Assembly (NCBI GenBank): GCA_021432655.1
Contig: MU271464.1
Location: 1-60,099, forward strand
Reading direction: 5' to 3'
DNA length: 60,099 nucleotides
Origin: Atractiella rhizophila
Lineage: Eukaryota
Position numbers and translations under genes: made by a program. The first letter of the stretch is position 1. Each line of letters opens with the position of its first letter. Below are positions 2,212 to 25,351 of this stretch, in pieces. The notes beneath the pieces were generated by a model. That model made no database searches. It was not told the DNA's origin and saw only the letters and a program-made list of their open reading frames with translations.

Positions 2212-3107
2212 ATGTCAGATCCTGAAAGGGAATCACCTGTGGACGAGAAGAACACTGAGATTGAGAATGCGAAACACACTCAGGGTCCCTCGGAAGTAGA
2301 GAAGGAGACTATTGAGGACGAGAAGAAACCTGCAGAAGAGAAGAAGCGTAGGTTCGACGTGAGTTTCCACTCAACACGTCCCTTTTCATTTGGCGGAGTT
2401 AAAATCCATGATTTTTCCATTGCGAACAGAAAACGTTTGAGAGTAAAGAAAAAGGTCCCAAGCACACACTTATCGATATATCGCGGATCGAGCCGAAGGC
2501 TGAGGACTTGTACGATAAGGAAAAGGTTGATTTGGAGCAGGTGGGGATGGATGACGTGTGGCAGTTGCTCCAGTGAGTTTCCGTTCATCATTCTTTTCGC
2601 AAGAAATGGGAATGGGAGAGTTATTTTTGGTCTCGGTCATTGTTGGTCAATGTGGTCATGATGATTTCCCTTTTTGTGTTTAGATGCGACGAGAAGGGAT
2701 TGACGAACGAGGAGGTCAAACCTGAGGTCAAACGTCGAACCGAAATCTTCGGACCAAACGAGCTGGAGTCGAAGGAACAGAACGCTTTCCTCCAATTCCT
2801 TTCATTCATGAGGAACCCTCTCTCCTGGGTCATGGACGGAGCCACTTTAGTCGCCATCGCTCTCTCGAACGGCGGAGGTAGCGCTCCGGATTGGCAAGAC
2901 TTCGTCGGAATTGTCCTTCTCCTTTTCGTTAACTCAACCATCGGTTTCTACGAAGAAGGCTCCGCCGGGAGCGCTGTCAAAGCTCTCATGGAATCTTTGG
3001 CTCCTAAGGCGAAGGCGAAGAGGAACGGCGAGTGGAACGAAATCGAGGCTTCTGAGCTTGTACCTGGAGACGTTGTTTCCTTCAGAAGCGGTGACATTGT
3101 CCCCGCG
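2212..3107 (+). pseudogene. PMA1: Plasma-membrane H+-ATPase (P3A) 5' fragment: N-terminus, TM1-2 and start of actuator domain only
   Basis: Spliced reading (introns ~2359-2429, 2574-2683) gives KAEDLYDKEKVDLEQ...FGPNELESKEQNAFLQFLSFMRNPLSWVM...PDWQDFVGIVLLLFVNSTIGFYEE..AVKALMESLAPKAK...LVPGDVVSF.SGDIVPA, then homology stops. No TGES or DKTGT motifs. Normally conserved residues are substituted (FMRNP for FMWNP, EEGSAGS for EERNAGN). Confidence 0.9.
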
Positions 3108-5116
3108 TCTATGCTACCACTCGAAGGGCGGCCTACTGACATGAAGAAGGCGGAACTGTTTTGGAAGTTTAAAATTGGCGTTGTCCCGTTTCGTGATCCT
3201 CCCGAAGAGGCCGACGACGACGATGCAGCGGCAGCGGCAGACGAAAACAACACCGAGAAAATCGATACCGAAGGCGACGGCGACGGCGCTGACGAGGGTG
3301 ATACCTACCAAGTCGACGCAAGCGAAGATGATGCATACGAAGTCGACGCATATGAAGAGGATGCGTACGAAGTCGAGGAATATGAGGATGATGCATACAG
3401 GGACAATCCGGCTGCCGACGATACCATCGAAGAACTGGATTCTCTAAACAACTTTGAAAATCCAGCCGAGAAGGCAGCGGAGATCCGTGGGCAAAATAAC
3501 GATTTACAACGCTGTCATCCAAAGTCTCCAACACAGGACTCGCGTCTTTTCCATTTATGTTCGTGGAAAAACAGCTCGCCTTCTTTGCCACTCTCGCGCT
3601 GGCACACTCGTCACCACGCCTTTCAACTACAACGAGGACTCATATCTGCATCGATTTTTGTTTCGGTACACGCGCGCTACCAGAACCCAACGGGGGCACG
3701 ACGATACTTACAGGAAACCGAGCAACCCTGTAGAGGAAAGAGAAGCGAGGCTCAACCTTGGGATCAAGGATGACGACGAGCTTTACGTCGTTGACATCGG
3801 TCCATCCAGATACTACGTCTCGACCCCATTCACGAGCTTTCACGTATTTCCTGTCGGTCGTGGTACGAAATGCTTCTACGCCTATTGCCCTGGTCGAGAT
3901 GAACTTGTGCTTTTTAAGGACACCTGGAGGAAGATGCAGTACGAAAAGGAGGGAAACACGCTTCGAATGTTAAACCTTGCAAATATCCCTAACATCCCGA
4001 CTGTTCTCGACGAGTGCGATATCGAGGGCTACTTCCAAACGATCGAGGCACCTTTCGGCCAAGCCATGCAACATTACGTTCAGGTTACTGACGAGATCGG
4101 ACGCCCTCTTTCTTCGTTCAAGTCTAGCTGGGAAATGATCAATGCTGTTTGTGACGCTATCTTAGGCATGTTTTTCTTCTGTTTTATTGCTCCACTGACC
4201 GGAACACAGCTCACAAACTCGCTTGGGAGATGACCAATATTTTACACCGGGACATTTCATCGGGAAATATCCTGATTTATGATCTACCAAGATCTGACGG
4301 CGAGCCGGCAAGATCTCAAGGGCTTCTGATAGATTTGGAGATGGCAAAAACAGAGTCATCAAATTCGTTACCGCGGACGACTGAACGTACTGTACGTTCG
4401 CTCCTGTTTTCAACGCGAAGCGTTTCTGAACTGTGGGACATTAAGGGTACCCATCAATTCATCGCTCTCGAACTATTGAATCCAGGTCGCATCAAGCATG
4501 GACCCCAGCACGACCTCGAATCATTCATCTATGTCTTACTTTGGATCACAATACGGCACGCCAAATGTGGACCATCTATGGGAGAGGATGACAAGCGTAG
4601 CGCGCTCGAATTTTCGACAGGAAGAGCACGATGGCAAAAAGTCGCGCAGCGAAAAAAGAGCTTCTCGCGTCCTCCTCTCGCGTGACACTCCTAGCTCTAG
4701 AGACGTCAGGACTGCACGACGCTCTCGAGGCAATCTGGCTGCCCTTCCAAGCTCATATGCAGGCTATCCGACTTGGAAGGGCCGATCAACTCAACAGCAG
4801 CATCTTGACGCATTCTGTTTTGATCGAAAAGCTTTCATCCAGCCTTGAAAGTATCGATTGGAAACAGACAATGGATCCTGCTATAATTTACGTTATGCTG
4901 AAGCGAAAGAGGAAGGATGCAGACGAGGATGGAGAAAGGGAGAGGAAGCGATTACGGAGCCGTGCTGGAAGAAGTGGTGAGAATGGCGGTGGACAAAGGC
5001 TTGCCAGGATTGTCCAGGCTGAGAAGAGTGCTGCAAGTGGTCGAACGAAAAGAAGGAGTGGGGTGAGAGAGGTAGAGGACAGAGGTGGGAGAACTGGATT
5101 GAGGAGTCAAGGATGA
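3108..5116 (+). pseudogene. Fungal-type protein kinase (FunK1 / Pkinase_fungal), 5'-truncated and frameshifted
   Basis: Family motifs ELFWKFK..PF.D, RGQ|ITIY..QHRTRVFS..ARLL..RAG, RGHDDT, LFKDTWR, GRPLSSFKSSWE, ILHRDISSGNILI, GLLIDLE, GTHQFIALELL, HDLESFIYVLLW. Frameshifts at AAAA 3493-3496 and TTTT 4611-4614. Introns ~4166-4209 (GC-AG) and ~4393-4445. Confidence 0.85.
3299..3399 (+). repeat. Coding tandem repeat encoding an acidic DAYEV/DAYEE tract
   Basis: Imperfect 15/30-nt period (gatgcatacgaagtc-gacgcatatgaagag-gatgcgtacgaagtc...) inside the kinase N-terminal region. Confidence 0.75.
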
Positions 5117-5330
5117 ACGATCGTGACAGCGCCTTCGCTTCTCACATTCAATATGATTTTGATGTATTTCATTCTGCAAGCCATCCACAGCTTTACTCCT
5201 CCTACAGCTTTACTCCTCCTACATTTCTTGTTGATGATTCTATAGCACGGATCATCAAGTTCGTCACAACATCAGTGTGCTTGAACGAGCCAAGGACGAC
5301 GCTTAGCTGCAACGATTGATGTGCTTTCAG

Positions 5331-5995
5331 GTCAATGTCCCTTGGATTACTGACCCTGATGAGATCATCGTCCAGTAGGTCTACCCTAGGCTGTCTCGTC
5401 CATGTGCCACGCACTGCTGTATGTTGCTGGCGACATTTAGGCGGTTTGCCCCTTCTTTCTTTTTCTTTCATATCACCGAAAGCGGTGCTGATCCATCGAT
5501 AGTAGGGCCAAGGCTGTCTCGCTCAATCCTACCGATTGGAAGAGGGCACATGAATCATTTGCTGGTACTTTCTCTTTCATCCGCTCGCATGTCATTCGAT
5601 CTGATCGTCTTTTAAACCACAGAATACCTGAAGTCGGAAGGTGCGCTTGTGTGGAAGATTCCCGAGGGACTATCTTCGTCTTTCGAAGAGGCGGCAGCTA
5701 TGGGAGAAAGTTCTCAACATACTGCCTTCATGATGATGTTCCTAAGCGATTCTCCTCTCCCAAGGCCCGACAAGCCCATCAGCGAGGAAAGATCTTTCCC
5801 CCTTCTCATCTAGGCTGGTACCACTGCTTGTGGTATTTACTGCATTCAATACGCCAAGGTGCGCCCTCTACAGAACTTAGCGAAGTCTGCTGGACTTCAA
5901 GGTTGTCACCACCGCTTCCCCAGTTAAACATCAACTTTTGAAGGGTTACAGCGCAGACGCTTGCTGCGACTACGACGACCCTGAAGTTGTCTCGA
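5331..5995 (+). pseudogene. Medium-chain dehydrogenase/enoyl-reductase-like (ToxD/YLR460C family) gene remnant
   Basis: Spliced pieces: KAVSLNPTDWK (5500-5532), EYLKSEGALVWKIPEGLSSSFEEAAAMG, AGTTACGIYCIQYAK, FKVVTTASP..HQLLKGYSADACCDYDDPEVV. Internal segments are missing and the gene is cut by the LINE. Confidence 0.75.
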
Positions 5996-7173
5996 GAAGG
6001 AGAAGGACTGGCCCAAAGCCAGGATCAGCTCAATTTGGTTAGTGACTGGTCTGATCGGAATGGAATGAAGCTCAACATCCCCAAATGCAAGGTTGTTGCT
6101 CCCTTCCCTGTCTCAGTCATCGTCAATGGTCTTCAGCTCCAGCAGGTCACCTCTGCAAGGTACCTTGGCATGTCGCGGGGTCCAGATGGTATCGATTTCA
6201 AAGGTTGGCTTTTGGAGAAGTCTGACAAGCAGGACAACTTCCTGAGGAGCCTCCAGGTTTGTGGGAATGCTTGGAGTGAAGTGATCCGCCTTGCAATCTA
6301 CCGCACCTTTATTCGGCCAATCTCAGACTATGGCGGCGGTCTTTTTCATTATTGGATTCTAGCCGACGAGCGCCGTCGCTCCTCATCACCTGCAATGCTG
6401 GCGGCGTCCCGTCACTTCAAATCGGCTGCTTCTTGGATTGTAGGGGTTTCACAGGACCGATGGAAACTGGCCTCGTCCATGACAGGCTTACTCCCGCCTT
6501 GTGAACGCTTTCGTCAACTCGGAGCAGGTCTTACTGCCCATCTCCGCTCCCTTTCTCGCTTCAATCCTGCCCTCCCTCTCGTCATCTCTCCCTGGACGGC
6601 TCCTCCTTTAACCTTCTGCATTGTTCCTCACATTCAGTCCTGTGAGCTATACGCTCGCTTTCTGACCGTGCAAGCAGATGAGGAGGCTAGCAATGGCTAC
6701 GTTCTCTCCCTTCAAACCTTCCTTCGTCGCGAACGGCTTCGCCTCCTCGGCTAGCTCATTGGTGGCTTAGGTTCCCTTGTCTCACTGGCTCAGAGGACGG
6801 CGTCCTTGGTTGACAGGGTCCTCCTCATCCCCGACATCAATCTACGACGTTTGGCCATCAAGTGGCGCGCTGGCCGCTTCGGATTCAGCCGAACCTGCTC
6901 CTGTGGTCTCCCTTTCTCTCGCGGCCATGTTCAATGTTTGATTGCATCCCTCGGTTTCTTATCTTCTGTTGACTGCCCTTTCACGGATCTCTCCCAGTTC
7001 TCCTCAGTTCCTCTACCTTCTTTCCCCAATTCTTCAATCTTAGATTCTCTCATTGCTCATAGAGATAACTCATTTTCTTCCATTGCTTATCAAACCCTCC
7101 TTTGTCTGGTTCAACTTCCTTAGTTCATAACTGAGCCGTAGTCATTCCTGCAAATTCACTCTTAATCCCCCCC
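5996..7173 (+). mobile_element. 5'-truncated non-LTR retrotransposon (end of RT, thumb region and C-terminal Cys/His motif)
   Basis: QLNLVSDWSDRNGMKLNIPKCKV, RYLG, RLAIYRTFIRPISDYG, C-terminal CSCGLPFSRGHVQC. One in-frame TAG at 6752-6754. ORF ends at 7123, followed by a short 3' UTR ending in a C-run rather than poly(A). Confidence 0.88.
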
Positions 7174-8034
7174 TCAAAGTGAAGGCCATTTTACCCGTCA
7201 AGAAAGGCTACCGAGGAATGACGGACGGGCGACAGCCATCCGCATGGACATCAGTCGAAACTCCGATGAATACTTACATCACCACCTGCTTCCCAACGTC
7301 CGTCATGATCAACTGTCACGATCAATCTGAGAAGGCTAATGATGTGAATACGCCAGAAGGTCGCTGGCAGGCAAGGGTGGCCCTACCTTAGTTCCAGACT
7401 TTTACTTTTGGCACTTTTAGACTTTCAGCACTTCGCTCTGCAAAAGCGGTGTTTGCATCAATTTGACTACAGCTGTAATCGTGATAGAGGAAGAGAGTTG
7501 TGTGTAGCTGGGAAGGCGGTAGTAGTCAAATTTCCAGGAGGCAAAAGAGCCATTATCCATGGTGGGAGATCAGTAGTGCATTAGCAGCATCGCGGAGATC
7601 GAGCGGCGGAAGGAGGAAGCGTTGAATCATTTCGAGGAGGAGCGAGAAAGCATTGAATCATTTCGAGGAGGCGAAGGAGCTCTCATCGATGGTGGATCAG
7701 CAAGGTGAACCCCACTGCATTTGCAGCATCGCGGAGATCAAACAGCGGAAGGAGGAAGCGTTGCGAGTTGAGGGAGATGGAGTGGGGCGGACCCATTGAC
7801 TCGAGAGCTGTTCTGGATGAACCTTAGTGCATTGCGTGTCTGTTGGTCACGGACATTGCGCAGTCTTAAAAGAGAGCGATCATCGATCGTCTTGGATCAT
7901 CCAGTTCAGATTTCCTCGCTCCAGCCTCTCCTACAATAAAAGCAAAAGAGACTGGAAGTTGTAGAGTCAAGATGAGCCAAACCGTCAAGAAGAGCCTGAA
8001 CTTTTCCGCGATTCATTGAGTGAGTAACTATCGG

Positions 8035-8462
8035 CGCGAAAAATCCCACGGAATTTTAAGGTGATAAGAAGATAAGATCTCAAAGATTGCGGTTAACAGA
8101 CGTAATCCTTAACAAAGGTGCCTGTATGCAACGTGCACCATCCACATGCATATGATATCTTGTTGTCCAAGGTAATCTGGAAGAATTGCGCGGAAGCATG
8201 TGGCAGAGTCAGGATATGAACTGTAAAATGAGCTGAAGCAAAATACTTTTTCCAAGGACAAGGACAAAGCGAGATATGTCTCCTGAAATAGAATCGAATT
8301 ATGATCTCAAAAAAGCTGCTGATCAAATATAATAATAATTGGAGATCGATTTTGTCTGGTGGTCGTATGGCACAGGAATTCTGTGACGAGAAACTAACGA
8401 GGAAAGCACAAGAAGAAGGAGGTAGATGAGGTCGACTCGCGATGAAAGAGACGACCTCCCCG
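8035..8462 (+). repeat. Left arm of long inverted repeat; upstream region of the sugar transporter
   Basis: 8102-8462 is the reverse complement of 16792-17148 (roughly 90% identical by eye, several small indels). Weaker similarity extends to ~8035/17226. Confidence 0.95.
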
Positions 8463-8533
8463 AAAGCTTTAAAGGCACTGAGCTTCTCCTCGATTTTTTT
8501 TTCCTCACCCACAACTGAGGGAAGCATCACGGT

Positions 8534-11405
8534 ATGGCAACGTTGTCACAAATCGTCTCAAGGACCTCTATCGACCCGCCGCGCCCTGCCCTAGCTACTG
8601 AATTGGTGGGCTTCACTTTATCTTTTTTACTTGAGGTTCCTTTCTGACTTTGTAGCCTCACAGGGTCAAGGCAGTACCTTTGGTTCTCCATATGTGTTCG
8701 TTTTGAGTTTTGTCAAGCCGCTGCTTCTGAAAGATGTGGACTCGACAGTGTAGGCGTCGCGGTGTTCGCATCGCTTGGAGGACTGTTGTTTGGTTATGAT
8801 CAAGGTGTTATATCCAATGTCATCGTGAATCAAGTTCGTTCACTCTTTGTTCATAGATTCTTCCCCCCAAATCTCATCTGTGACTTCAGAGTTTCGGCTC
8901 CTATTTTCCTAAAGTCTTCACGGACCCCGATACCAAAGGATGGGTTGTTTCGATTCTGGAGTTGGGTGCCTGGTGAGTGGTCTTTGTTCTCTCTTGCCTA
9001 GCGATTGAGCTGACGGCAGCATCCAGGTTGGGAGCGTTGTTGATGGGTTACATCTCCGACAGATTGGGAAGAAGAAAGTCCATCATTGTTGCTGGTAAGT
9101 AGACTCTCAACAATGAAGCTCTCTGACTTTGCTCTCACAGTTTTTATTTTCTTACTTGGCTCTGCACTGCAAACCGCCGCCCCGAAGAGTCAGGACGCGT
9201 ATTTATTTGCTGGGCGTTTCGTCGCCGGTTTATCGTCAGTTTCTCATTGTGACTATTATTTAGTGTTGCTCACGGATGAGAGCAGGATCGGAATGTTGGG
9301 TATGTCGTTCCTCTTTGTCAGTTCCCAGCTAACTTAGGAGCGTCAGCTATGGTTGTGCCAGGTGTGTTTTTAAGCCTTTATTTTTACAATGATGACTGAC
9401 GTTGCCATAGCCTATCAATCCGAAATCGCGCCAGTCCATTTAAGGGGAACACTTACTGCGTTGCAACAATTCAACATCACGTGCGTCTTCCTCATCCTCA
9501 TCTACCACTGCTGATAATCGATTTCAGTGTTGGGATTCTGGTAAGCCACCATGTCGCAAGATAAATCAGTACTAACGCACCTCTTCTAGTTGGCCTTTTG
9601 GATTTCATGTTCGTCCAACGATTTTCGTTTTAGCTGCTTTTGAGAAGCGACTACTTAGATGGGACTCATTTCATTGGAGGGATAAACTGCACCAATATCG
9701 GTAGGTGATCCAATTAAATATTTGTATTCGACAGGTTTGCATGGACTCATTGTCTGGTCTAGACTTTAATCAGGCTGAGGTTGATTGTCCTGGATTTGGG
9801 AGACTGGATCCCGCGTATTGTGCTGAAAAAATTGGTGTACGTGGAATTCTTTCAAGACCAAGCATACCTGAACTCTTTGGGAAAGTGCGTTGGTCAACAC
9901 ACCGCTAGCTGGAGGATTCCTTTAGGTGTTCAGCTCCTGCCCGCCTTGATCCTCGGAAGTTCGTTATTTTCTTGTCTCCGTAGTCCCTTCCTCATAGTTG
10001 TTTTAAGCTGGAATTCTGTTCTTCCCGGAAAGTCCCAGATGGTTGATGGGCAAGCATCGAGATGAGGAAGCCATCCAAGTCCTCTCGCGCCTCCGGCGGC
10101 TTCCCAAAGACCACAGAGTGATTCAGCTCGAGTACAAGCAAATAAAAGCTGCCGTTATGCTTGACGAAGAGAGTGAAAGAGATAGATATCCACACTTGTT
10201 GGATGGGTCCAGAAAGTCCGAATTCAAACGTGGAGCGTTGAAGTATGTGGATCTTATTCGCAGGAGACCTTGGCTCCACAGAGTGCGTATTTTACCAGAT
10301 TCAAAAATTTGGGTTAACAATCGCGAGCAGGTCTTTTTGGGATCTGCCATCAACTTTTTCCAACAATTCACAGGTATCAATGCGATTGTCAGTTCAGGTC
10401 ACTTGTACGGTCGAATATCATTTCTGACATGATTGGTAGATCTACTACGCTCCTACCATTTTCGCGTCTGTCGGTCTCTCAGGAGAAAGCACCAGCATTC
10501 TCGCAACCGGCGTCGTCGGAATCGTGAATACCCTGTCCACCATTCCTGCTGTCCTGTGGGTCGACAAATGGGGAAGAAGACCTATTCTTCTCGTCGGGTC
10601 CTTGGCTATGTTGGCTGTCACGTTGGTAAATATGTCTTTGAATATTGCGTACGAGGATAGCTGGAGCTCTCACAAAGCTGCTGGTTGGGCCGCTGTGACA
10701 ATGGTTTGGCTGTTCATCGCCAACTTTGCATACTCCTGGGGGTGAGTGGCTTTCTTTTCTATTTTTCTCAGCCTGACCAAATGTTTGCTCTTAGGCCTAT
10801 GGGTGTATGTTTTCGACTTTCGTGACTACATTACGAGTGACTCAATTGTGAAACAGTGGATCTATCCTGCCGACATCATGCCAGTCTCCATTCGAAGTCA
10901 AGCTCTCTCCATCACGACCTCTGCTAACTGGATGTGCAACTTCATTATTGGTGCGTAGTACTTACAAAAGTGACATGATCTCTAATTCTGCTTCAGGGCA
11001 AGTCACACCGAGAATGATCAAGAACTTGAGATGGGGAACGTACCTGTTTTTCTCCGTCTGGCTTGCGTTGTATGTCCCTTTCAGTGACAATGAATGTCGT
11101 ATTGATGATCTGCTTAGGAGTGTTGTCTTCGTCTATTTCTTCGTCCCCGAAACGCGCGGGAGATCCATTGAAGGTCCGTACTTGCTATCATTATTCGCAC
11201 TCACATTTATTCGACTTCAGAAATCGACGCAATTTTCAGAGATACAACCGCGGCCGAAGACGAGGAAAGGAGAAAGAGAATTCATCGAGAGTTGGGTTTG
11301 GAAGAGTCTTCTGATGCACTTGACACTCACATCAAAGAAAAGAGCGACGACGACAATGTATTGGAAAAGAACTTGAAGCAAGAGGGTCAACAAGAATTTG
11401 CTTGA
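8534..11405 (+). CDS. MFS sugar-porter family monosaccharide transporter (~20 introns)
   Basis: FASLGGLLFGYDQGVIS, SDRLGRRKSI, AGRFVAGL, YQSEIAP.HLRG.L..LQQ, WRIPLGVQ, PESPRWL, FFQQFTGINAI.YY, VDKWGRRP, FAYSWGP, NWMCNF, FVPETRGRS.EEID. Stop TGA at 11403-11405; start inferred. Confidence 0.93.
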
Positions 11406-11757
11406 AAAATATGTACGTCGTATGGTTAACAAATAGTTTGGTGGACATGTCGTCTATTGTTGGGTTCTTAACTTGAATTGTAATTGTATCTTACTACTGA
11501 TTGTGACTGGGTTTCTCAATACGTATAAAAGAAGATAAATTTCAATGGAATTGAACTCCCACAAGTTTTGTAACAGAAAAATATTACGTTGTGACGTGCA
11601 TTTTGTGAACCATGAAGAGGACGAATTCTGCTCAACGACCAATGTAGTTATTGGTGTTTAAGGCTTCAACCTAGCACACAACACATGGTCAGCAACGAAC
11701 AGCTCAAGACTTGAAGAAACAAAATATGATCACATCTTCATGTTCATAATCTCTTCC

Positions 11758-13359
11758 TCAAAGTTCTTCTTCTCGCTTTTCCAAGTTTTTCAAGTCTTCG
11801 GAATTGTGCGTGTGCGTCGAGGTCTGCACTCTGATGCCTGTATCCAGATGCTGATCCAGAGGAGGTCTCGAAAGACGACTCAGCTGGTAGGTGGGAAATT
11901 TCGCTCTTGATGTTTCAGCGCTGACGGGTGCTGGAGCGACATGAGAGTGGCTGAGATTTGCAGAAACCGAAGTGCAAGAATGGTTGAATTCCTCTTTCAG
12001 AGGCCCACGAATGTTCAACGTAACAATTGTTGTGAGAGCTATAATCCACAACGGCAATATTAGACGGAAATTGCTCATGTGAAGAGACAGAAAACGAACC
12101 ATAGGTGTGAGGATGAAGAATGCCGATAGCCACATGGGCATTTGAGGATAGAGCTTTGGATGGTTTTATCAGACTATAAGGTCCAAGGCGAATGAGGTAG
12201 AAGGACTTTACAAGTTGCAGCGAATAAAATGGCATCCGCAATAGCAAATACAGCTGTAAATGCCGCGCTTGTCATGGACAGATGAATCAATCTTTGAAGT
12301 AACCCATCCGTCCGGAAATTGGAATGTCAGATTGTCAAATCAGAACGCAAATGGAAAAATTACTAACCTTTTGTTGAAATTATGTTGTGCCTTTCTCAAA
12401 TGGTAGGAGAGAATAAAGCTAGAGAAGTGTGAATACCTATTGTGACTTCGATGAAATTGTAAATGATTACGATATTATAAGGTCTGACATCGCCTATAAA
12501 TGCAATATCAAAGAATCGATCATCTGAGCGTGGAGCGTGGATTACAATAAAATACATACAACTACCCACAGCGTGAGCTGGAGAGCGATTTGGATTCTGT
12601 CAACAACCTCTTTTGCCCTATATTGACGTTTAGGGTACATGACAAACAAACAAGGCGCAAGATAAAATAACTCACAACTTTGATTGAATGCTGTTGAAGA
12701 CTTGTTGAAAATTATAAAATTGGCAAGACCGGTTCCCAAGCTCGCCAAAATCAAAAAGACCATCAAAGCACCAACGAGTTTGTTTTTGTAAAGGAATCTC
12801 CAACACCTTAAACCAATCGTGTTGGTTGTTGGACTACATGGTGTTGATGGAGGGCGTACCGATGTGCAAAGTAACACTGGGAAAAGAACTGACAGCAGAC
12901 GATTGAGAATGTAACAAAACTGTAAAGATGATGCACGCACAGTACTCCAGACGGGGAAGAGAATAAGTGAGCGTTAGTACACTGGTGGGAAAAGGGATTT
13001 GAAAGGGTCGTATCGTGTGGTGATAAGGTAGTACCAGGCCACGGCGATGTTGACAGCACAAGAACACATGGAACAAGCAAAAAGAGCCAAGACAAGAAAC
13101 TTATACACAAAGGGATCCTGGTTACAACTCAATCCTGGTTACAACTCAACTCACGAAAACGTCGAGAGCGAATTAAGTACGTACGTTTCGATAGGTGAAA
13201 TAATATGAGAAGGTGTGTTGAACCACGAGTGAAGCGAGGGCTGTAGTACCCAATGCTCCAACAAGCCAAGGACTGCCGCCAACATGAAGTTTGATCCCGT
13301 AGGACTCGAAAAAAGAAGACATACCCAAAGAGCGCAGCACTGTTGACTTCAGATGCCAT
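11758..13359 (-). CDS. Multi-pass membrane protein, DUF6534-like basidiomycete family
   Basis: Spliced hydrophobic exons SPWLVGALGT..LVVQHTFSYY, D.FVYKFLVL, RCWRF..NKLVGALMVFLILASLG, and a TLNIRGPLK motif before a S/T-rich cytosolic tail. Family assigned from recalled consensus. Confidence 0.6.
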
Positions 13360-14179
13360 GCGAGCAAGACTAAAAATATAACTCTGCCAGATATCGGATG
13401 AGGAGTGTGCAGAGAGGAACGCGCTTTATGTGCCCTGGAGAAATCTCCAAGAACTTGAATGGCCACGATCCTCACCACGAATTCCGTCCATGAAAGAATG
13501 AGATCGAAACAGCAACACCACATACTCCACAGAGAATAGGTGTTTGAGTAAAAACGTGGACTCATCGATTACGATCACTATTGGTTCACCAATGCATTGA
13601 GGCACGGTTTTCCAAGGTGATTTTCAAGCAACAACAATTCCGCTGGCCGCCCGCTTCTATGTCTGCTTAGTCAGGGAGGAATGAGACAGAAAGTGGAAGG
13701 CTCGAATAAGATGTCCTAAAATTGCGTATCGAAACCACGATGGTACAGATTTCGGAGAACATCGTGTGTTATCAGAAAATGTGGGAGTGCCCTCGTTCAT
13801 GTTCGGGATTCGCTCTCGCTCGAGTAGGAGGTAACATCTAAACATTTCATTTCTAGTAGGTTTACGCCAACCCGTAAAACCTCTTCTTTATCATTTACAT
13901 GTCCCAAATTCGAGCTTTCTTTGTGTGAGGATTACGAGGTGGGAGCATCTGCGGAACGAACGGAATGGCGGAACGGCGGATGGAGTGGATACGAGTGATA
14001 CGGGACATGAGGAATTGGCAAACGAAAAGGTAAGTTCTCTTGTAAGCAAAAAGAACGTAATTCTGTATAAAGCTAAGAGCACACTTGAACAGCCGAGGCA
14101 AAAGTGTGGCAACGCCACGAAAGAAAAGGAATGGAGGTTGAAAATAGAACCCTAACTATCACGCATTGTCCATCGCGAC

Positions 14180-16658
14180 TTAATTACCAGCCCAAATACC
14201 CCAAGGTCCATTGGTCAGGGTACCATCCCATAGCAACCCTTGTCTCGTGTCTGCAGGTCTGTGAGGCCAGGCGTTGATCAATCCATCCAAAAGTTCCACA
14301 TTCGAATAATGCACCGTGGAATTAGCTCCTCCATTTTGGACTAGGAATCCAACGCCTTTGGAAGCGAGTAACCAAGGATAAGCACGCGTCGTAATCACTG
14401 TAACGTCGTTTGCATACACTTCCACGACGGAATTGTCGACGACGATGGTAAGATTGAGACTCTGTTGGACAGTCGTACCGTCCGACGCGATATTCCAGAG
14501 TCGCAGCTTTCCATACTCCGTCTCATTTCCATCTGTTATCAACGAGTAATTTTATGAGCAAAAAGAACGGTCATCGTGAAAAAAATTGGATACGTACAAC
14601 TTCTGACCAGAGTACTGTGGCTTCTATTGATGACGAGCGTCTCGTTTTTTGGATCGTAGTAAATATCCGTATATTCTTGATCACTGGCCAGTACCCTGAA
14701 TCCAGCCTGAGCCAGGGAAGACGTATCGCCTTGGAACTGTAGAGTCGCATTGATCGCATAGTGCCGACCACTTGGTTGAGTTCGGAAGGGAACATAACCA
14801 GCGGTTCCAATAAGAGCGACAGCAGCTGGACGAGAGATTGTCGAGGAGGAACGATATGCCTGAATTGTCTCAGGAATGATACGTTGCCCCACCTATTAAG
14901 AAGAAAAATGAGAACGATATGACCACGATCATACAATAGCACACCGTGACCACAGAAGTAGTGCCATCCTTCTCATTCCAAACCTTCCAATTGCCGGGGC
15001 CATGCAAACCAGGAGTATTGGGGTCAACGTTATGTATCACTTTGAGGAAAAGGTCTCGGAAGAGAGTAAAGGCTCCTTGATATCCTCTCTGTGCGGTCAG
15101 AACCAGATCCTCGTCATCCTCCTGTATACGATTCTTATGTCAGCAATCATCCCATAATTGAATAAAACTGCCTACATAAGTCCATCCTACCAGTACGGAG
15201 CGGTTTCCAGACACAGGGAAGAAGATGGAGGCATATACTCGTCCCCAATCGACGACACCAACAGCATCTAGTGTTGAACTGATACCATCTCCTTCATTGT
15301 GAAATGTAGCAGCGGCCCCTCAAGAGAAGCTTCAGACGATAGCATGAGCAACGCTCAACAGGTACTCACAAAGTGGCCAATGATTCTCGTGGCTTCCATT
15401 CCTGCCTTGCTCTGTGCCCATTCCAATAATATTCAACGCCCTCGAGTCACTCCCATCGTCATACGCCATTCCATTTTCATTCAAACGCGTGATGCCACTC
15501 GTCTCGAAATTGATCCCAAAGTTCCCACTCCATTGGGAAAAACTGGAGAGACCGGGTTGAGATACAATCGGTCCAAGATACTTCCAGCTGAGGAAATCAT
15601 GGTCCGCCGCTTGACGATACAGGAGCAGACGTGGTCCGGTGCTGGATTGGCCAGAGTCTGCGCGAATGCCACCAGAGATGGTGAGAAAATTGGAGCCGTT
15701 GACATCATTTGATACTCCCTGAAGCATCTTTGACAGAATGGCAGACTGGAACGCGTATGGGTCACGGAATCCAGTCATGTTTTTCAGTGGCCATTCATCT
15801 AGGAGTTGTTAGCAGGAGCAAAAGAAAATAAGAGATCACAAACAGATGACTGGGTTTCCGCCCGTACCAAATTTTAGTTTGATCCAGCTCGCTCCCCCGT
15901 CCTTTGTGTACGCCAAGCTTTGCGTTTCTGTGCCTTCCTGCTCAGGTGGAGAACTGGTGGCGCCGAGTGGGCCGGGGAATACAGAGGTGTAGATCGTAGT
16001 TGGGTAACCGTTCCATCCGCGTTGAATGATTGAGCCGTCGAATACACCCCGAATATCGTAAACTTCCGAAGGATACTGATGAAAAATCGGTTCAACAAGA
16101 ATCAAGGTACGAACTGCAATCTTACGAGTGTCTTTGGATTCTCCCATCGGTTAGCTATACAATATCCGATCAATGAGTTGGTCTCGGAAGACTGCTAACA
16201 CATACCATCTCGCCAATAGGTCAGATCGTTTGAGAATGCCGAGCACTGCGATATATTGCCCCATTGGTAGTGCTAAAAAGAAATTTAGACTCGGAAATAT
16301 AATATAAAACTGACATACTTGAGGGTGGCATTGATACCCAGCGTGGAAAGAACCATCGCTCCTCTGAAAGAGTCCTATAAACAAATCAGTGGTTGTTGGA
16401 GCGGATACAAGTTCGATCCTCACCTTGCGGGTCATTCATCCATCCTTCAGGCGCGATCAATCTGGCCTGCGGCCTCCAGACAAAGAATAAAGTCGAATTG
16501 CCACATTGCGTCAAATCGCCAGGAGCAGCATTTTGATTGGCAACGCACGTGCTCGACGGGTACTGATGTTTTTCAGTCCCATGGAGAGGTGAAGAGAAGC
16601 TGGCCGCGACTAAGGTCGAGGCGATAGCGAAGTTCGGATTGAACTTGAAGAAGTGCAT
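14180..16658 (-). CDS. Secreted GH32 beta-fructofuranosidase/invertase (possible fructosyltransferase)
   Basis: Signal-peptide-like N-terminus, WRP..RLIAPEGWMNDP (nucleophile), FDGS, GFRDPY, NFET (acid/base), D.G.AYAS, and a C-terminal beta-sandwich LTIVVDNSVVEVYAND...TTRAYP. Confidence 0.95.
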
Positions 16659-16700
16659 TGCGTGAATGGGATCTTGGACTTGATCGTGTTTATGTACCCA

Positions 16701-16796
16701 TATATATATACTCGAGAAGCACGAATCGTTTTCGTTTATGAACTTCCGCTTACCCGCCCCACTTTCTCATGCAGTCCCCAGCCACGCCCAGCGGGG
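16701..16796 (-). promoter_or_regulatory. GH32 core promoter: TATA tract plus SYGGRG (CreA/Mig1-type) motifs
   Basis: tatatatata at 16701-16710, ~45 bp upstream of the ATG. SYGGRG matches at 16757-16762, 16776-16781 and 16791-16796, with more at 17161-17166 and 17240-17245. Confidence 0.5.
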
Positions 16797-17226
16797 AGGT
16801 CGTCTCTTTCATCGCGAGTCGATCTCATCCACCTTCTTCTTGTGCTTTCCTCGTTAGTTTCTCGTCACAGAATTCCTGTGCTATACGACTAAGTTACCAG
16901 ACAAAATCGATCTCTAATTATTATATTTGATCAGCAACTTTTGAGATCAAAATTCGATTCTATTTCAGGAGACATATCTTTCTGTCCTTGGAAAAAGTAT
17001 TTTGCTTCAGTTCATTTTCCAGTTCATAATATCCTCACTCTTCCACATGCTTCCGCGCAATTCCAGATTACCTTGGACAACAAGATATCATATGCATGTG
17101 GATTGGACCTGGTGCACGTTGCATACAGGCACCTTTGTTAAGGATTACCTGTGCAGGAGGCTGGGGAATCTAATCCCAATCTTTAAGACCTTTGCACCAC
17201 CTCAGAATTCCGGGATTTTTTTGGCG
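16792..17226 (-). repeat. Right arm of long inverted repeat; upstream region of the GH32 gene
   Basis: Reverse complement of 8035-8462, with the strong part at 16792-17148. Confidence 0.95.
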
Positions 17227-18586
17227 GCAAAGTGGTCGCCCCCAGGGGTTTGCGCAAGCGGCCGGAGGCCGCAACGAAATGGTTTTGCGCTTCAATTTTG
17301 AGAAAATTTGCAGCCAAAAAGCAGGTAGGTGTTATCGCCGACCATCTCCGACCCCTTTGGGCGACGGGTCTGCTGGGAATCTTACTTGTGGAGAACAGCC
17401 CAACGGGGTTTTGTTCCTTTGTCGCACCTTACACCAATGTTAGCGTGACCACAGACATGTAACTGTCTTCAAATAATTGTCTTGAATAATATACCTCGGG
17501 CCGTAATTGCACCCATATCGATGACTTCTCTTGCTGAAGAATTGTGCGTAGGAACCGGAATGTGAACCCTTAATACATGCTTGATAACACGGTCAGCGTT
17601 TGTGAGGAATGGCAGAAATTTATCGACGCTAGACCTAGCACTGGTCTTTGCCTTCTTGGCCGTTGGGTTCACCTTTTGTTGTGGGCCAAGGACTGCACCA
17701 GCTCATCGTTGTCGATATTCATACCAGACAGGTCCTCTCCCACTACTTCATTATGGGATCATAGTCCTGATCTCGCTCACTTAGTCAACAAGGCCATTAG
17801 CTGCCAGAAGGACTGGGTCCGAAGGCAGCCGCACAGAGGGAACCTCTGCGTGGGTTGAGGAGGCGTGTGGGTACCACAGAGTCATCAACCTCAACAAGAC
17901 TCGGCTAGAGCTGACGGAACAGGACAAACCCATATCTTCCACCGATGTCTGGGCGTGTCGGATGCCCAAAAATCTTCGATGGATAAGCTCGTCGCCATAC
18001 CCAAAGAGCCAGGTGTCTTGGTGGACAATTTGTTGGCGATTGATAAAAAGAGTCGCGGTCGTCTCATTTCAAAGGGCAGGCAGGTGCCATGAACATAAAT
18101 AGTTTGGGTTGAAAATTGTAAGAAACTGCAAGCAAGACCTTCAGCTCGTCGTCGCAAGTATCTTCCTGTGCCTTCGTTTATGCACATTTAATACGGAAGC
18201 CCAACATGGGGGTGAAGACGGTACATACTCAGTGTCATCAACTGAAGACCAACTCGTCCCATTATTCCTCTTCACCAAATCAACCGAAGTCCTTGATCAT
18301 TTCCCTAAACAACCGACACGGTCGCCGTTGAAATCAAGTGTGTTCGTGGGATTTAAATGTTGGAAAGGGTTTTTAAGCGGTACAGGGACAGTGTTAGCAC
18401 CATGCGGAGCAAAGACACGATGGACAACCTGCCTTGTTCTAGGCTGAATCATACATAGCAAATCATAAAAATAGCCCATTAGCGATTCAATACGGCTTAG
18501 AAATCGTAATGGAGTCGAGTTCCCAATCGAAGGTGGTTGCTTCGTGGATTTGGGCCAGGATACAAAATTGTCACAGGCTCATGGGG

Positions 18587-20273
18587 TCAGCTCTGGCAGC
18601 CATCCCCAGTCGCAGCGGAACTGTTCTTACTGTCTTCGGACCAACCGTTGTTGTAGAACTCAGTCTCTTCATACACCTCATCTGCCCAATCCTTGATCCA
18701 CCTGAGTCGCGGGCCAGATATTTGAGGATCGATGCACTCGTCATCATCGTCCACATTCTCGAACCATTCAACAGCTCCGCTAAACTGTAGCACGTCGCCC
18801 AGGACGCGATGGTACCACATAAAAATGTCGGCCAGATCCCCATCAGCATTGTCCAAAGTCTCTGCTGCCATCCATGCTTTTTTCCCCTTCCTCTTCCCCC
18901 TCTCTCCTTCTAAAGCATCTCCTACGTTCTCTTCTGCCCTTACAGCCATCCCAGGTGGAAGAAGGGAAGCATTGTCGAAGGTTCGCTTGAATACCGCTGG
19001 CGGCAAACCAATAGTCGGCCCAAGGTACTCGTCTTCCATGCTCTCCCGTAAAAAGTCGTTCTTTGATTTCCGTTCTCTCTCACTGTTGAAAAAGGAAGGA
19101 AACTCTTCTATTCTCTTCAAGGAGGCATTGACTTGGGTGTCCATTTCTCGTACGAACTTATCTCGCACGCGGACGTACTGAATGTGTATCAGCATGGCAG
19201 CAACGAGGGAAGAAGCTTGCTCACAATGTTCCCCTCCTTTCTTTCAAACCATACTTTGTATGCACAAATGTGCTTATAGATAAGCGATGTGACAAGGACG
19301 ATATTAGTGGCCTGATCGCAGTTCTCCTCCTGGCAGTCGGCCCCAAAGATGGTTGATATCCACGACCAAACCTGGTCTCCATTAATCATTACCCACCGCA
19401 GAAATGCTTGAGGACAAACATCCAAACTCCAAGGTAACAGGTGGGCTGCTTGGCATGGGGTTACCCTCCCGTTCAAACCACTCAGTCGGCAAGTTCCATT
19501 ATCCCTCTTCCAGACCTAATGTGTCATTTAGCGAAACCTGTGCCCTGGAACAATATGGAACAACCTTTTCTACTTCTTTTTGATTCCTGCCCTTCGGTTC
19601 CTGAGCGAGTGAACCAACAGCTCTTTCAGACGGTGTACCGGATGCTGCTTGAGAATCCAGCGAACGATTAGGACCACGAACTGCTTTCACTACCATCCCT
19701 TCCCTTCCATAACCATTCCATATTGTGAGACGTAGAGAACCCACTTGGTGCAATTAAAAACGCCCTCATGTCACGTATCCTGGACCATATTCGGTTCCTC
19801 TGTCTCAAAACCTCCAAACAGAACCTGTTTTGGCAATCTTCCGCCGTACGAGGAGAGTTGGGATTGCGCTTCGTCCAGTCTTCCGCTACCAAAGTCCTGT
19901 CCCATTCCACCATCTTGATTAGGAACGCACGATCCCTCTCCCCTTCTTCCGGATTCAGGGGTATCAGACGGGCATCCTCCTCTTCACTTGATCCCTCCTT
20001 TTTCTTCTTCAGCTGCTTCTTCAGCTTCTTCTTGTGCTCATTCGGCTTTTTGTCTTTCCAACCAACATTCACACTAATCTCCGATGGTAGGTGAAGCGTC
20101 TGCAGAACCTTCACTGTGAGGAGAACGAGCTCAGCATTCGTTAGAGCGTAGATGTCGTCGGAAAGGGTGGGCTCGTAGTAATCGATCGGAGGGTTGGGTT
20201 CGCGTAGAGGAAGAGGTACAAGGGTTTCCAGAAGGGTCTGTAACGTTTCAGACGGCTTTATCTCAGCGGTCAT
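18587..20273 (-). CDS. Putative HNH_2-like endonuclease-domain protein (possibly degenerate)
   Basis: Spliced ORFs with RNQKEV, CQAAHLLPWS and D.ATNIVLV.SLIY...KVWFE, resembling the fungal HNH_2 pattern AAHI.P...N.I.L...H. Acidic C-terminus. Exon structure uncertain. Confidence 0.45.
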
Positions 20274-22615: not shown

Positions 22616-23928
22616 TCTGCTACCGTGATGCTGAATGGCCAATCAGTTGGTTAATGTGGTTAATGTCGGATGTTGATGGTGCTTTTGCTTTTGCTGGAAG
22701 GAGTGAACCACACATCCGACCGGAGGTTCCCAATGACGCAGATGTTATATCCCTTCTCTCCCAAAAGCTGCCAGCTTGAACTATCCCAGAACCCCAAAGC
22801 CATCTCTCAAGATATCATCGAACTGTATCAAACACCACACTGAATTACTGTCATCTCGGCATCGAGACTGCCCTTATATCATCACGAACGAGCACCATAA
22901 CAATGCAGGCAGCTAAAGCAGTCATTCCTTGCGTCCCCCCAGACTCGAACGTCAAGGAATCCCTCCCTTCCCACGCAGACGAGATACCGACAGTGCTAGA
23001 CGCCAGCGAGGCTCCCCTTCTTCTTCGTAGCTCCTTTGGAGCTCTCCTCACAAGGACGTTGCCAAAGTGCGTATTATTACTACTTTTATCAGCTTCACCA
23101 TTGTGCTGTTATGTCATGATGTTCCATATTCATAACCTACAATATTCTTTTTCCATCCATTACTTGCGTTATGTCCATTATTCCCTTATTCCTATCACAT
23201 CGACTCCCTCCAACATATGGTTCGTGCTGAGAGCAACTTCTACTCTACAGATACACGGGTTCATATCCATCTGCTACCGTGATGCTGAATGGCCAATCAG
23301 TTGGTTAATGTGGTTAATGTCGGATGTTGATGGTGCTTTTGCTTTTGCTGGAAGGAGTGAACCACACATCCGACCGGAGGTTCCCAATGACGCAGATGTT
23401 ATATCCCTTCTCTCCCAAAAGCTGCCAGCTTGAACTATCCCAGAACCCCAAAGCCATCTCTCAAGATATCATCGAACTGTATCAAACACCACACTGAATT
23501 ACTGTCATCTCGGCATCGAGACTGCCCTTATATCATCACGAACGAGCACCACAACAATGCAGGCAGCCAAAGCAGTCATTCCTTGCGTCCCCCCAGACTC
23601 GAACGTCAAGGAATCCCTCCCTTCCCACGCAGACGAGATACCCACTGTACTAGACGCCAGCGAGGCTCCCGTTCTTCTTCGTAGCTCCTTTGGAGCTCTC
23701 CTCACAAGGACTTTGCCAAAGTGCGTCTCAGTCCTACTTTTATCTCCTTCACCTTTTGTGCTCATGTTATGTCATAATGTTCTGTATTCATTGTTTGCAT
23801 CTACAATATTCTTTTACCATCCATTACTGGCGTTATGTCCAATATTCCCTTATTCCTATGACATCGTAACCCTCCAATATGTGGTGCATACTGAGAACAA
23901 CTTCGACAGATACACCGGTTCATATCCA
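22616..23928 (+). repeat. Tandem duplication, ~654-bp unit (22616-23269 / 23270-23928): promoter, exon 1 and intron 1 of the PAF-AH gene
   Basis: The first ~280 bp are identical, exon differences are mostly synonymous, and the intron is clearly diverged. Confidence 0.97.
22903..23269 (+). pseudogene. 5' partial copy of PAF-acetylhydrolase-like gene
   Basis: MQAAKAVIPCVPP...TRTLPK exon, an intron and ~19 nt of exon 2, then the sequence restarts at the promoter. Confidence 0.85.
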
Positions 23929-25351
23929 GTCGGGGTATGCGACGTCGAGCTCCCCATCGAGCCGCAGACATTCGGCTCCTTCAAACACATCAGCATGCCC
24001 TCCCTCCACGCCGGTCTGCGCATCGACAGCGTCCTCTTCTCCGTCTTCTATCCCGCCAAAATCGACCCTTCCTCCGGCGCAACTCCAGGAGTGGCATGGT
24101 TTCCCAAGCTCGGACAGACCATCGACGGGTTCCTGAAGATGGCCAGCAGGATACCCAACAACTGGTACAGATCCATCGCATGTCCGTCCACTCCCTCACC
24201 ACCACCTACCAAGAACGCAGGTTGATGACTGATTGATTGTAACAGATCCCATCGCCGCCAGTGCCATCTACGGCACCACCTTCCCAGCCTACAAGTCTCC
24301 AACCCTCCTCCCGCCTCCAACGAACCAGGGCAAGTGGCCAGTCCTCCTCTTCTCCCACGGGGTAGGGTGCTCCCGTCTCATGTACTCCGCCTACTGTGGA
24401 GAGATGGCTTCAAGAGGTTACGTCGTTGTCGCCTTGGAGCATCGGGATGGCACTGGACCTTCCAGCACCATCAGGACCAAAGATGGGAAGACGGAGCAGC
24501 TGGATTGGTTAGATTGGAAGGACCTCGAGTTCGCTCTTCTCTGCTCCTCCTCTACTCAATGATCTTATCTGAATTAGGTGGCCTGACCTCAAGGAACAGC
24601 CTAAAGACGATACCACGCTCAGACATGAGCAGCTTCGTGTCCGACTCGCCGAATTCGAACAAGTGCTGAGGGTCTTCGAGAGCATCAACCGGGGAGAACT
24701 TATAGAGAGCCTGCTCACTTTGGGCCCTGATTGGAGCTGGAAGGAATGGGAGGGTCGTCTAGATGTCGAAAAGGGGAGAGTTCATGTCTCTGGTCATTCC
24801 TTCGGTGGGGCTGCTGCTGTGCGTCTCCTTTTTCCTCAATTACAGCTTTATAAAGTATTGTTGTGATGTGGTACAGCTCGCCGCTGCGGCAGATGACAGG
24901 TTCGCCTTTAGACGAGTTGTCACGATGGACGCCGCTACACAACGTTCGTATTTCTTCGTACCCCACATCATCCCCTCCCTGTACATTATTTTGACGCTGA
25001 GCAGGCTTGCTACCATGGGGCGACCGTCGCATCCCAAATCCACTGCTCAACATCACCTCCGGCGAATTCGTCAAAGGGGCTGAAGAGAGCGCTCTCGTCC
25101 AAATCTCCCGCACTGCCCCAAGTGGACACGTCTACATCTTCTCCATCGTGGGAGCGACCCATCCTGCCTTCTCAGACGTACACCTCATCCTTCCTGACCT
25201 AGTCAATCGGTTGATTGGACTCAAGATCGATCCGGATAAGGTCATTGAGCTCTCTGTCAAGTCGACGCATGACTTTTTGGAGGGACGAGAGGAGGAGATG
25301 ATTAAGAGGCAGGAGCGCGAGAAGAAGGTCTTCCTTAGAGAGCAGATTTGA
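23557..25351 (+). CDS. Platelet-activating-factor acetylhydrolase-like alpha/beta hydrolase
   Basis: YTGSYPVGVCDVELP, VLFSVFYP, KWPVLLFSHGVGCSRLMYS.YCGEMASRGYVVVALEHRDGTG, nucleophile GHSFGG, catalytic His in THPAFSD. Confidence 0.93.

What the first reader, a model, noticed from the sequence alone, without database searches (positions are those of the whole stretch)
8035..17226. Sucrose/fructan-use cassette bracketed by an inverted repeat that doubles as the shared upstream region of transporter and invertase
Seen: 8102-8462 and 16792-17148 are reverse complements (~90% by eye, fading out to ~8035/17226). The left arm ends ~70 bp before the sugar-porter ATG (+) and the right arm ends ~135 bp before the GH32 ATG (-). 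Two non-homologous, convergent genes therefore carry the same ~400-bp upstream sequence in the same orientation. Known: GH32 enzymes release glucose and fructose from sucrose or fructan, and sugar porters import monosaccharides. Inference, three non-exclusive models: (a) co-regulation by wholesale promoter duplication; (b) an invertible 8.3-kb cassette whose flip would swap only distal upstream sequence between the two genes, or the scar of a staggered-break inversion; (c) long TIRs of a non-autonomous cargo-carrying element. I found no target-site duplication and no transposase.
Basis: partly seen in the sequence, partly recalled or inferred. Interest (0 to 1): 0.85.

Follow-up and report, generated by a model that had tools for sequence, protein, structure and literature searches.

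The report
Inverted duplication upstream of two sugar genes
A root fungus carries two mirror-image copies of a 425-base stretch of ordinary non-coding DNA, one in front of a sugar transporter gene and one in front of an invertase-type gene, most likely left by a small local rearrangement and not by a jumping element; whether the shared DNA makes the two genes switch on together is untested.

Summary
Bases 8039-8462 and 16792-17220 are reverse complements: 95% identity over aligned bases, 17 gaps, BLAST E 5e-130. The left arm ends 71 nt before the ATG of an intact 22-exon sugar porter. The right arm ends 133 nt before the ATG of an intact 10-exon GH32, 45 nt beyond the end of its RNA contig.

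The arms are low-copy. They have no target-site duplication, no sharp outer termini and no similarity beyond them. The same assembly, named Atractiella rhizophila by its source, holds a second GH32 on another scaffold, 662 of 671 residues identical. Read contigs show that this copy keeps the right arm and runs on collinear past its outer end, but stops matching near 13.75 kb, inside the "cassette". The porter has no second copy. So the repeat-bounded block is not a mobile or duplicated unit.

The best reading is a local inverted duplication of unique intergenic DNA. Its anatomy fits the scar of a staggered-break micro-inversion. Shared regulation is possible but unproven. The single RNA data set shows abundant GH32 contigs and almost none for the porter. 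This is a new member of a known kind, of modest interest.

The parts
8039..8462 (+). Left arm of the inverted repeat. Well-kept core 8097-8462, diverged outer 58 nt.
   Evidence: Exact DNA contigs of runs X1/X2 cover 7147-8131 and 8271-12559.
16792..17220 (-). Right arm of the inverted repeat. Core 16792-17153, diverged outer part to 17220.
   Evidence: The second genomic form ('B') also carries it at this position.
8534..11405 (+). Sugar-porter (MFS) gene, 22 exons, 601 aa, intact. The source calls it 'general substrate transporter'.
   Evidence: P0001 maps letter for letter onto 22 exons. Pfam Sugar_tr 1-452 of 452, E 4e-123. Cluster of one; the next best relatives of its largest exon are 55-59% identical.
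11758..13565 (-). Unannotated set of minus-strand ORFs rich in hydrophobic stretches. Possibly an orphan membrane-protein gene, possibly not a gene.
   Evidence: No Pfam family. No Atlas relative above 0.76. 0 hits among 1.84 billion representative proteins. My naive gene model only. The accessions of the two flanking genes are consecutive.
14180..16658 (-). GH32 gene (invertase/fructanase type), 10 exons, 671 aa, intact, with an N-terminal hydrophobic leader.
   Evidence: All 9 introns taken from RNA joints of run X3. The translation equals P0121. Pfam Glyco_hydro_32N and 32C.
16659..16746 (-). GH32 5' untranslated region, at least 88 nt. The RNA contig stops 45 nt short of the arm.
   Evidence: X3 record 17 reaches 16746. 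The X3 depth of bin 16523-17023 is accounted for by that contig alone (my arithmetic).
13730..13828 (.). Left limit of similarity between the window and the second GH32-bearing form ('B').
   Evidence: The X1 exact contig 8433-13828 (depth 152) overlaps by 30 nt a variant contig that starts at 13799 (depth 336). Bin arithmetic allows about 70 nt more of B to the left.
17226..17330 (.). Short high-copy element next to the outer end of the right arm. It is not part of the repeat.
   Evidence: Bin 17024-17524 has depth 3340 (X1) and 2722 (X2), against 150-340 nearby, and there are many different loose ends at 17274-17326.

Best explanation
The two arms are an inverted duplication of about 425 bp of otherwise unique intergenic DNA. 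A local rearrangement produced it, not a transposon. The likeliest single event is a small (8.3 kb) inversion made by staggered breaks at one breakpoint. In that event the stretch between the two nicks is filled in and ends up at both ends of the inverted segment in opposite orientation. A replication template switch that copied the stretch backwards would give the same picture.

The consequence is that one of the two genes kept its native upstream region and the other acquired a copy of it. Each gene kept its own last 45-71 nt (core promoter and leader). Shown here: the repeat, its low copy number, its position just outside the GH32 transcript, the intactness of both genes, and the fact that the repeat-bounded block is not the unit that is duplicated or polymorphic. 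Inferred: the mechanism of origin, and any effect on expression.
For: 1. The repeat is real and only two copies exist in the scaffold.
2. Read-contig depth over the arms is 206 and 459 (X1) and 69 and 307 (X2). Neighbouring unique DNA is at 152-336 and 96-340, and the true high-copy element beside the repeat is at 3340 and 2722.
3. There is no target-site duplication and no similarity beyond the arms. No transposase or recombinase family was found in 107 ORFs of at least 110 aa. These were 107 of 117; I left out the 10 that lie in the two known genes.
4. 10 of the 17 gaps are not multiples of three, so the arms are not coding. The arms have essentially no RNA cover in X3.
5. A second GH32 (P0135, on a 25,475-bp scaffold, 662/671 identical) is the form seen in the reads. 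All 3 amino-acid changes within the listed range match it, and 14 of the 17 listed exonic differences are synonymous.
6. That form is collinear with the window from about 13.75 kb through GH32, the right arm and on to at least 19.2 kb. No second form of 8.5-13.5 kb is laid, and the porter has no second copy among proteins.
7. Size and anatomy match inversion-associated inverted duplications of non-repetitive DNA in Drosophila. Those have a median of 321 bp and a range of 46 bp to 1.9 kb, and in 12 of 18 inversions they come from only one breakpoint (PMC1885836, passages read).
8. The scaffold has several other young local duplications.
Against: No outgroup or ancestral arrangement could be examined, so the inversion itself is not shown. 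A high-copy element adjoins the outer end of the right arm. One position in the arm (16979) has a summed X1 depth of 1127, which could mean one or two further copies of a 40-nt piece elsewhere. The outer 57 aligned bases are far more diverged (8 mismatches) than the 341-base core (11 mismatches; Fisher p = 0.002). A single clean event does not predict this, so later gene conversion or selection on the gene-proximal part is needed as well. The DNA of the second scaffold could not be fetched, so its left side is unknown.
Confidence: 0.6

Rival explanations
1. Functional promoter sharing. The duplicated 360-bp core is an upstream regulatory module kept alike in both copies by selection or gene conversion, so that the invertase-type enzyme and the sugar importer respond to the same signal.
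For: Both genes have the same sequence in the same orientation and at similar distance. The arm lies just outside the GH32 transcript. The gene-proximal core is 96.8% identical while the distal 57 aligned bases are 86% identical, which is the gradient expected if proximal parts matter more. The last 31 nt before each gene are identical. The pairing of functions makes sense.
Against: In the one RNA data set the GH32 contigs have depth 298-411 and the porter region 1.4-5.8 (contig depth is unreliable, and the GH32 RNA carries the letters of the other copy). The other GH32 copy lacks the proximal 58 nt of the arm and is still abundantly represented in RNA (my reading of the joint at 16767/16850). 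No CreA/Mig1-type motif enrichment was found: 0 and 1 sites against 1.5 expected. No zinc-cluster regulator motif is present in the window. One distant GH32 locus from a metagenome has no sugar porter within 10 kb, among 58 of 136 ORFs scanned.
Confidence: 0.25
2. The arms are the long terminal inverted repeats of a transposase-less, cargo-carrying DNA transposon of 9.2 kb.
For: Long inverted repeats bracket host genes.
Against: There is no target-site duplication, and the outer ends fade instead of ending sharply. The arms are low-copy. The arm shares no short words with any stretch noted elsewhere in the scan. The second GH32 copy runs collinear through the outer end of the right arm and loses similarity inside the block at about 13.75 kb. 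The block is therefore neither inserted nor copied as a unit.
Confidence: 0.06
3. Two independent insertions of a low-copy dispersed repeat (MITE, SINE or solo LTR) that happen to lie before the two genes.
For: The inner ends are sharp. A summed depth of 1127 at one arm position in X1 hints at extra copies of a short piece.
Against: Neither arm has flanking duplications. The depth bins over the arms are near the unique level. There is no third copy in 60 kb, and the arm's 29-mer has 0 exact matches in the metagenome collection. Two copies landing in the matching orientation at 71 and 133 nt from two functionally linked start codons would be a coincidence.
Confidence: 0.08
4. An actively invertible cassette. 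Recombination between the arms flips the 8.3-kb segment in living cells and changes the distal context of both genes.
For: Arms of 425 bp with exact blocks of up to 50 nt are long enough for homologous recombination.
Against: No strand-changing joint is among the 15 listed of 53, though contigs break inside the arms and drop rare forms. No recombinase was found. A flip would leave the first 425 bp upstream of each gene unchanged, so the expected effect is small.
Confidence: 0.04

Closest known systems
Inversion-associated inverted duplications made by staggered breaks (Ranz et al. 2007, PLoS Biol 5:e152, PMC1885836; abstract and passages read)
   Same: Inverted copies of ancestrally unique, non-repetitive DNA sit at the two ends of a segment. 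The size of about 425 bp lies within the reported 46 bp-1.9 kb (median 321 bp). Often only one breakpoint is duplicated. The copies diverge by substitutions and small indels.
   Different: Those cases are megabase inversions in Drosophila, proven by outgroup gene order. Here the segment is 8.3 kb in a basidiomycete fungus and no outgroup order was available. The identity here (95%) is above their mean (88%).
Transposase-less cargo-carrying DNA transposons with long TIRs (Pack-type elements; the NLR-carrying element noted in this genome, e1-7573930; ToxhAT as cited there)
   Same: Long inverted repeats bracket host genes, with no transposase inside.
   Different: No target-site duplication, no sharp termini, no family of copies, and no empty site. 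The limits of the duplicated or polymorphic DNA do not coincide with the arms.
Fungal sucrose/inulin utilisation genes regulated together, such as the Aspergillus niger inulinolytic genes and transporters under InuR (recalled, not from any call; my search found no fungal paper)
   Same: A GH32 enzyme and an MFS sugar transporter sit side by side, and joint regulation is plausible.
   Different: In that system co-regulation works through a transcription factor that binds short sites in unrelated promoters. Here a whole 360-425-bp block is shared, and no regulator gene is seen in the window.

Membership tests
TIR-bounded non-autonomous (cargo) DNA transposon | Target-site duplication directly outside both arms | tested here: not met
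   The flanks at 8038/8039 and 17220/17221 share no direct repeat (direct reading).
TIR-bounded non-autonomous (cargo) DNA transposon | Sharp, well-conserved outer termini | tested here: not met
   The outer 57 aligned bases have 8 mismatches and many gaps. The sharp ends are the inner ones.
TIR-bounded non-autonomous (cargo) DNA transposon | Presence/absence or copy limits that coincide with the arm ends | tested here: not met
   The second GH32 form is collinear across 17220 and stops matching near 13.75 kb, inside the block. The porter is single-copy.
TIR-bounded non-autonomous (cargo) DNA transposon | A family of related termini elsewhere in the genome | tested here: inconclusive
   No whole genome is held. 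The depth bins are near the unique level. There is no third copy in 60 kb and no look-alike among scan notes.
Staggered-break inversion with breakpoint duplication | Inverted copies of non-repetitive sequence at both ends of one segment | tested here: met
Staggered-break inversion with breakpoint duplication | Duplication size within the described range | tested here: met
   424 and 429 bp, against a range of 46 bp-1.9 kb and a median of 321 bp.
Staggered-break inversion with breakpoint duplication | Ancestral arrangement with a single copy and the segment in the opposite orientation | not testable with these tools
   No fungal genomes or relatives' loci are available. The second scaffold could not be fetched.
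Co-regulated gene pair through a shared promoter | Shared sequence lies upstream of both transcription starts | tested here: inconclusive
   GH32: the RNA contig ends at 16746, 45 nt from the arm. Porter: no RNA cover in 8006-8506 and depth 2.5 after it. Contigs cannot show a start.
Co-regulated gene pair through a shared promoter | Correlated expression across conditions | tested here: inconclusive
   There is one RNA contig set only: GH32 at 298-411 and the porter at 1.4-5.8. There are no conditions to compare, and contig depth cannot rank genes.
Glycoside hydrolase family 32 | GH32 N-terminal propeller and C-terminal sandwich domains in an intact frame | tested here: met
   PF00251 at 2.1e-29 and PF08244 at 1.5e-27 in 671 aa with no stop. 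The aspartate-bearing WMNDPQG and RDP motifs are visible in the translation; their catalytic role is recalled, not tested.
Sugar porter family (MFS) | Full-length Sugar_tr profile | tested here: met
   PF00083 positions 1-452 of 452, E 4e-123. The substrate is not determinable: relatives are named glucose, xylose or quinate transporters.

The most novel reading that the evidence does not exclude
The 360-bp core is a transferable sugar-responsive control module. One rearrangement copied the invertase gene's upstream region onto a previously unrelated sugar importer, which wired extracellular sucrose or fructan splitting and uptake of the products into one regulon in a root endophyte. Gene conversion between the arms now keeps the two promoters in step.
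Probability: 0.15. Interest if true: 0.55.

Novelty: new member of a known kind. Interest (0 to 1): 0.3.

Why it matters
GH32 enzymes mark a fungus's ability to take plant sucrose for itself. They are uncommon in Basidiomycota and rare in mycorrhizal species (PMC2728104, abstract and passages read). This makes an invertase-type gene next to a sugar importer in a root-associated fungus biologically relevant. If the shared block does drive both genes, it would be a clean natural example of regulatory rewiring by copying a whole promoter block in one structural event. If it does not, the locus is simply a small rearrangement scar. That is still useful as a marker of how micro-inversions arise in fungi, but not surprising.

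Tried and rejected
- The whole genome is not held, so no genome-wide copy count of the arm was possible.
- A 29-mer of the arm had 0 exact matches in the metagenome collection.
- Look-ups in the scan's own notes with the arm, with the second GH32 protein and with 12.3-20.5 kb found no look-alike stretch.
- I used my last protein search on a left-flank kinase exon, hoping to find a partner on the second scaffold. I set the cut-off too strict (1e-30) and it returned nothing. Whether the second scaffold shares the left flank therefore stays open.
- Rfam found nothing in the window.
- The middle ORF set has no relative by Pfam, Atlas or the 1.84-billion-protein search.
- The one related GH32 locus from a metagenome (L001; 55% identical, 65% G+C) showed no sugar porter within 10 kb among the 58 longest of 136 ORFs. 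It is too distant to say much.
- A first naive intron model of the porter read through introns and was discarded. The model used is the source's protein mapped exactly.
- The part of the cassette without a second form in the read contigs (8.5-13.5 kb) is reported only as 'no second form laid at 90% likeness'. Contigs drop variants, so absence is not proven.
- A RIP-like mutation bias was considered. 13 transitions to 6 transversions is unremarkable.
- An assembly artefact was considered and rejected. Independent read contigs match 7147-8131 and 8271-13828 exactly, and they carry the right arm next to GH32 in the second form.
Full report
**What is there**

The window is a eukaryotic, intron-rich sequence for which no whole genome is held. 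Protein look-ups show it is a complete 60,099-bp scaffold that its source names Atractiella rhizophila. Earlier notes of this scan call the genome an Atractiella-like root fungus.

The inverted repeat is real:
- Seven collinear inverted pairs were found.
- A local alignment of 8039-8462 against the reverse complement of 16792-17220 has 379 matches, 19 mismatches and 57 gap columns in 17 gaps.
- Self-BLAST gives E 5.5e-130 and finds no third copy in the scaffold.
- The inner ends are abrupt, and the last 31 nt are identical.
- No similarity continues beyond either end.
- The outer 58 nt align significantly (0 of 500 shuffles reach the score) but are much more diverged. There are 8 mismatches in 57 aligned bases, against 11 in 341 for the core (Fisher p = 0.002).
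- Ten of the 17 gaps are not multiples of three, so the arms are not coding.

**The genes**

*Porter.* The source's 601-aa 'general substrate transporter' maps letter for letter onto 22 exons at 8534-11405. It covers the whole Sugar_tr profile. Its relatives carry mixed names (glucose, xylose, quinate), so the substrate is open.

*GH32.* I built the gene from nine intron joints seen in RNA contigs. It gives an open 671-aa frame identical to the source's protein, with both GH32 domains.

*Distances.* The left arm ends 71 nt before the porter ATG. The right arm ends 133 nt before the GH32 ATG, and 45 nt beyond the last base of the GH32 RNA contig (16746). The RNA depth of the bin that holds the inner half of the right arm is fully accounted for by that contig. 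The arm itself is therefore essentially untranscribed in that run (my arithmetic). Each gene keeps its own last 45-71 nt, and the arms supply what lies upstream of that.

*Between the genes.* At 11758-13565 on the minus strand lies a set of hydrophobic ORFs. They have no Pfam family, no Atlas relative and no hit among 1.84 billion representative proteins. The two flanking genes have consecutive accessions, so nothing seems to be annotated there.

**Copy number and the second GH32**

I laid four public runs on 5000-20000.
- X1 and X2 are unspliced DNA contigs of one sample.
- X3 and X4 show the GH32 introns removed, so they are RNA-derived.

In X1, exact contigs cover 7147-8131 and 8433-13828 at depth 152. 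In X2 they cover 7145-8131, 8271-12559 and 12530-13828 at about 95. From 13799 rightwards only a variant form is laid, about 2% different, at about 336 in X1.

The protein collection explains this variant. A second GH32 (P0135) sits on another scaffold of 25,475 bp in the same assembly and is 662/671 identical. Within the range of differences listed:
- all 3 amino-acid changes match P0135;
- 14 of the 17 exonic differences are synonymous.

Both copies are therefore under purifying selection.

This 'B' form keeps the right arm at the same place. By my reading of the joint at 16767/16850, it lacks about 65 nt there, including the innermost 58 nt of the arm. It runs on collinear past 17220 to at least 19.2 kb. 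On the way it has its own indels, including a 370-bp deletion form at 17642-18013.

To the left, B stops matching near 13.75 kb. No second form of 8.5-13.5 kb is laid at 90% likeness. The porter's cluster has one member, and the next best relative of its largest exon is 55-59% identical and comes from other fungi.

Two small indels in the arm, at 16979 and 17026, have the same state in B and in the left arm. This window's right arm differs at both, so it carries its own later changes (my reading). In 16850-16979, B differs from the window's right arm by 3 letters and no gap. The left arm differs from it there by 5 letters and 3 gaps. The left/right split is therefore at least as old as the A/B split.

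*Depth over the arms.*

| Region | X1 | X2 |
|---|---|---|
| Left-arm bin (8006-8506) | 206 | 69 |
| Right-arm bin (16523-17023) | 459 | 307 |
| ~100-bp element just outside the right arm (bin 17024-17524) | 3340 | 2722 |

The arm bins are close to their neighbours. The arms are therefore not a high-copy repeat. One position, 16979, sums to 1127 in X1. I attribute this to overlapping contig ends plus words shared by the three known copies, but one further copy cannot be excluded.

**What this means for the three models**

*Model (c), cargo transposon.* It fails four tests:
- no target-site duplication;
- no sharp outer termini;
- no family of copies;
- most tellingly, the limits of what is duplicated or polymorphic (about 13.75 kb on one side, beyond 19 kb on the other) do not coincide with the arms.

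No transposase or recombinase family appears in 107 of the 117 ORFs of at least 110 aa; I left out the 10 that lie inside the two known genes. No zinc-cluster motif occurs in any frame.

*Model (b).* As active flipping it has no support, although contigs cannot exclude it. No strand-changing joint is among the 15 joints listed of 53. As a scar of a staggered-break inversion it fits well. Ranz et al. found inverted duplications of non-repetitive DNA at 17 of 29 Drosophila inversions, with a median of 321 bp and a range of 46 bp to 1.9 kb. [quoted passage not shown]

*Model (a).* It is correct as anatomy. As function it is open. The identity gradient (gene-proximal core 96.8%, distal part 86%) is what constraint on a proximal promoter, or gene conversion, would give. 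Two points count against a strong, shared promoter role:
- B lacks the most proximal 58 nt of the arm, yet it is the form seen in abundant RNA contigs.
- The single RNA contig set has GH32 at 298-411 and the porter region at 1.4-5.8. This measure cannot properly rank genes.

**Verdict**

The feature is a genuine, low-copy inverted duplication of unique intergenic DNA that gives a sugar porter and a GH32 the same 360-425 bp of upstream sequence. It most likely arose in one local rearrangement, either a micro-inversion with a staggered break or a template switch. It is a new member of a known kind. The regulatory reading remains a testable hypothesis and has not been shown here. The decisive data were outside the tools: the second scaffold's DNA, a genome-wide count of the arm, relatives' gene order, long reads, and condition-resolved RNA.

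Noticed in passing
window 17226-17330: A short element of about 100 bp with palindromic pieces lies directly outside the right arm. It is high-copy in the genome: bin depth 3340 in X1 and 2722 in X2, against 150-340 nearby. Many different continuations appear at 17274-17326. It looks like a MITE-type repeat.
   Followed up: partly
window ~5500-7166: A multi-copy, strongly transcribed stretch. DNA bin depth reaches 4811 in X1 and RNA depth reaches 19978 in X3. It holds long plus-strand ORFs (5942-6751, 6755-7120) with no Pfam family. By eye it recalls the tail of a non-LTR retrotransposon ORF, but no tool confirmed this. The unique, exactly matching DNA begins right after it at 7147.
   Followed up: partly
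window 13799-19200 versus a second scaffold (protein P0135): The assembly holds a second, about 2% diverged copy of GH32 with its upstream arm and right flank on a 25,475-bp scaffold. It apparently lacks the porter block. This is either a haplotype with a roughly 6.6-kb indel or a segmental copy.
   Followed up: partly
window 14180-16658 (GH32): The closest relatives of the largest GH32 exon are all Agaricomycetes: Serendipita vermifera at 68%, then Vararia, Heterobasidion, Hysterangium and Mycena. None of the 14 hits at E<=1e-15 is named as Pucciniomycotina, the group to which Atractiella belongs. This may reflect sampling, loss in relatives, or transfer between root fungi.
   Followed up: no
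window 25126-28822; 22616-23928; 53003-53551; 49811-51580 vs 55968-57717: There are several other local duplications. One is a 1.85-kb tandem pair at 99% identity that carries PAF-acetylhydrolase-like ORFs. Tandem pairs of 0.65 kb (92.6%) and 0.27 kb (96%) also occur, as do two FAD-binding oxidase paralogues at 74%. The scaffold is prone to duplication.
   Followed up: no
window 2577-4682: A fragment of a P-type ATPase (N-terminus and the start of the E1-E2 domain only) lies beside a fungal-specific protein kinase split over two frames. They look like pseudogene debris in the left flank.
   Followed up: no
window 7530-7775: Local direct repeats of 31-48 nt lie upstream of the left arm. One X1 contig shows an extra repeat unit there (joint 7766 back to 7661, depth 148).
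   Followed up: no
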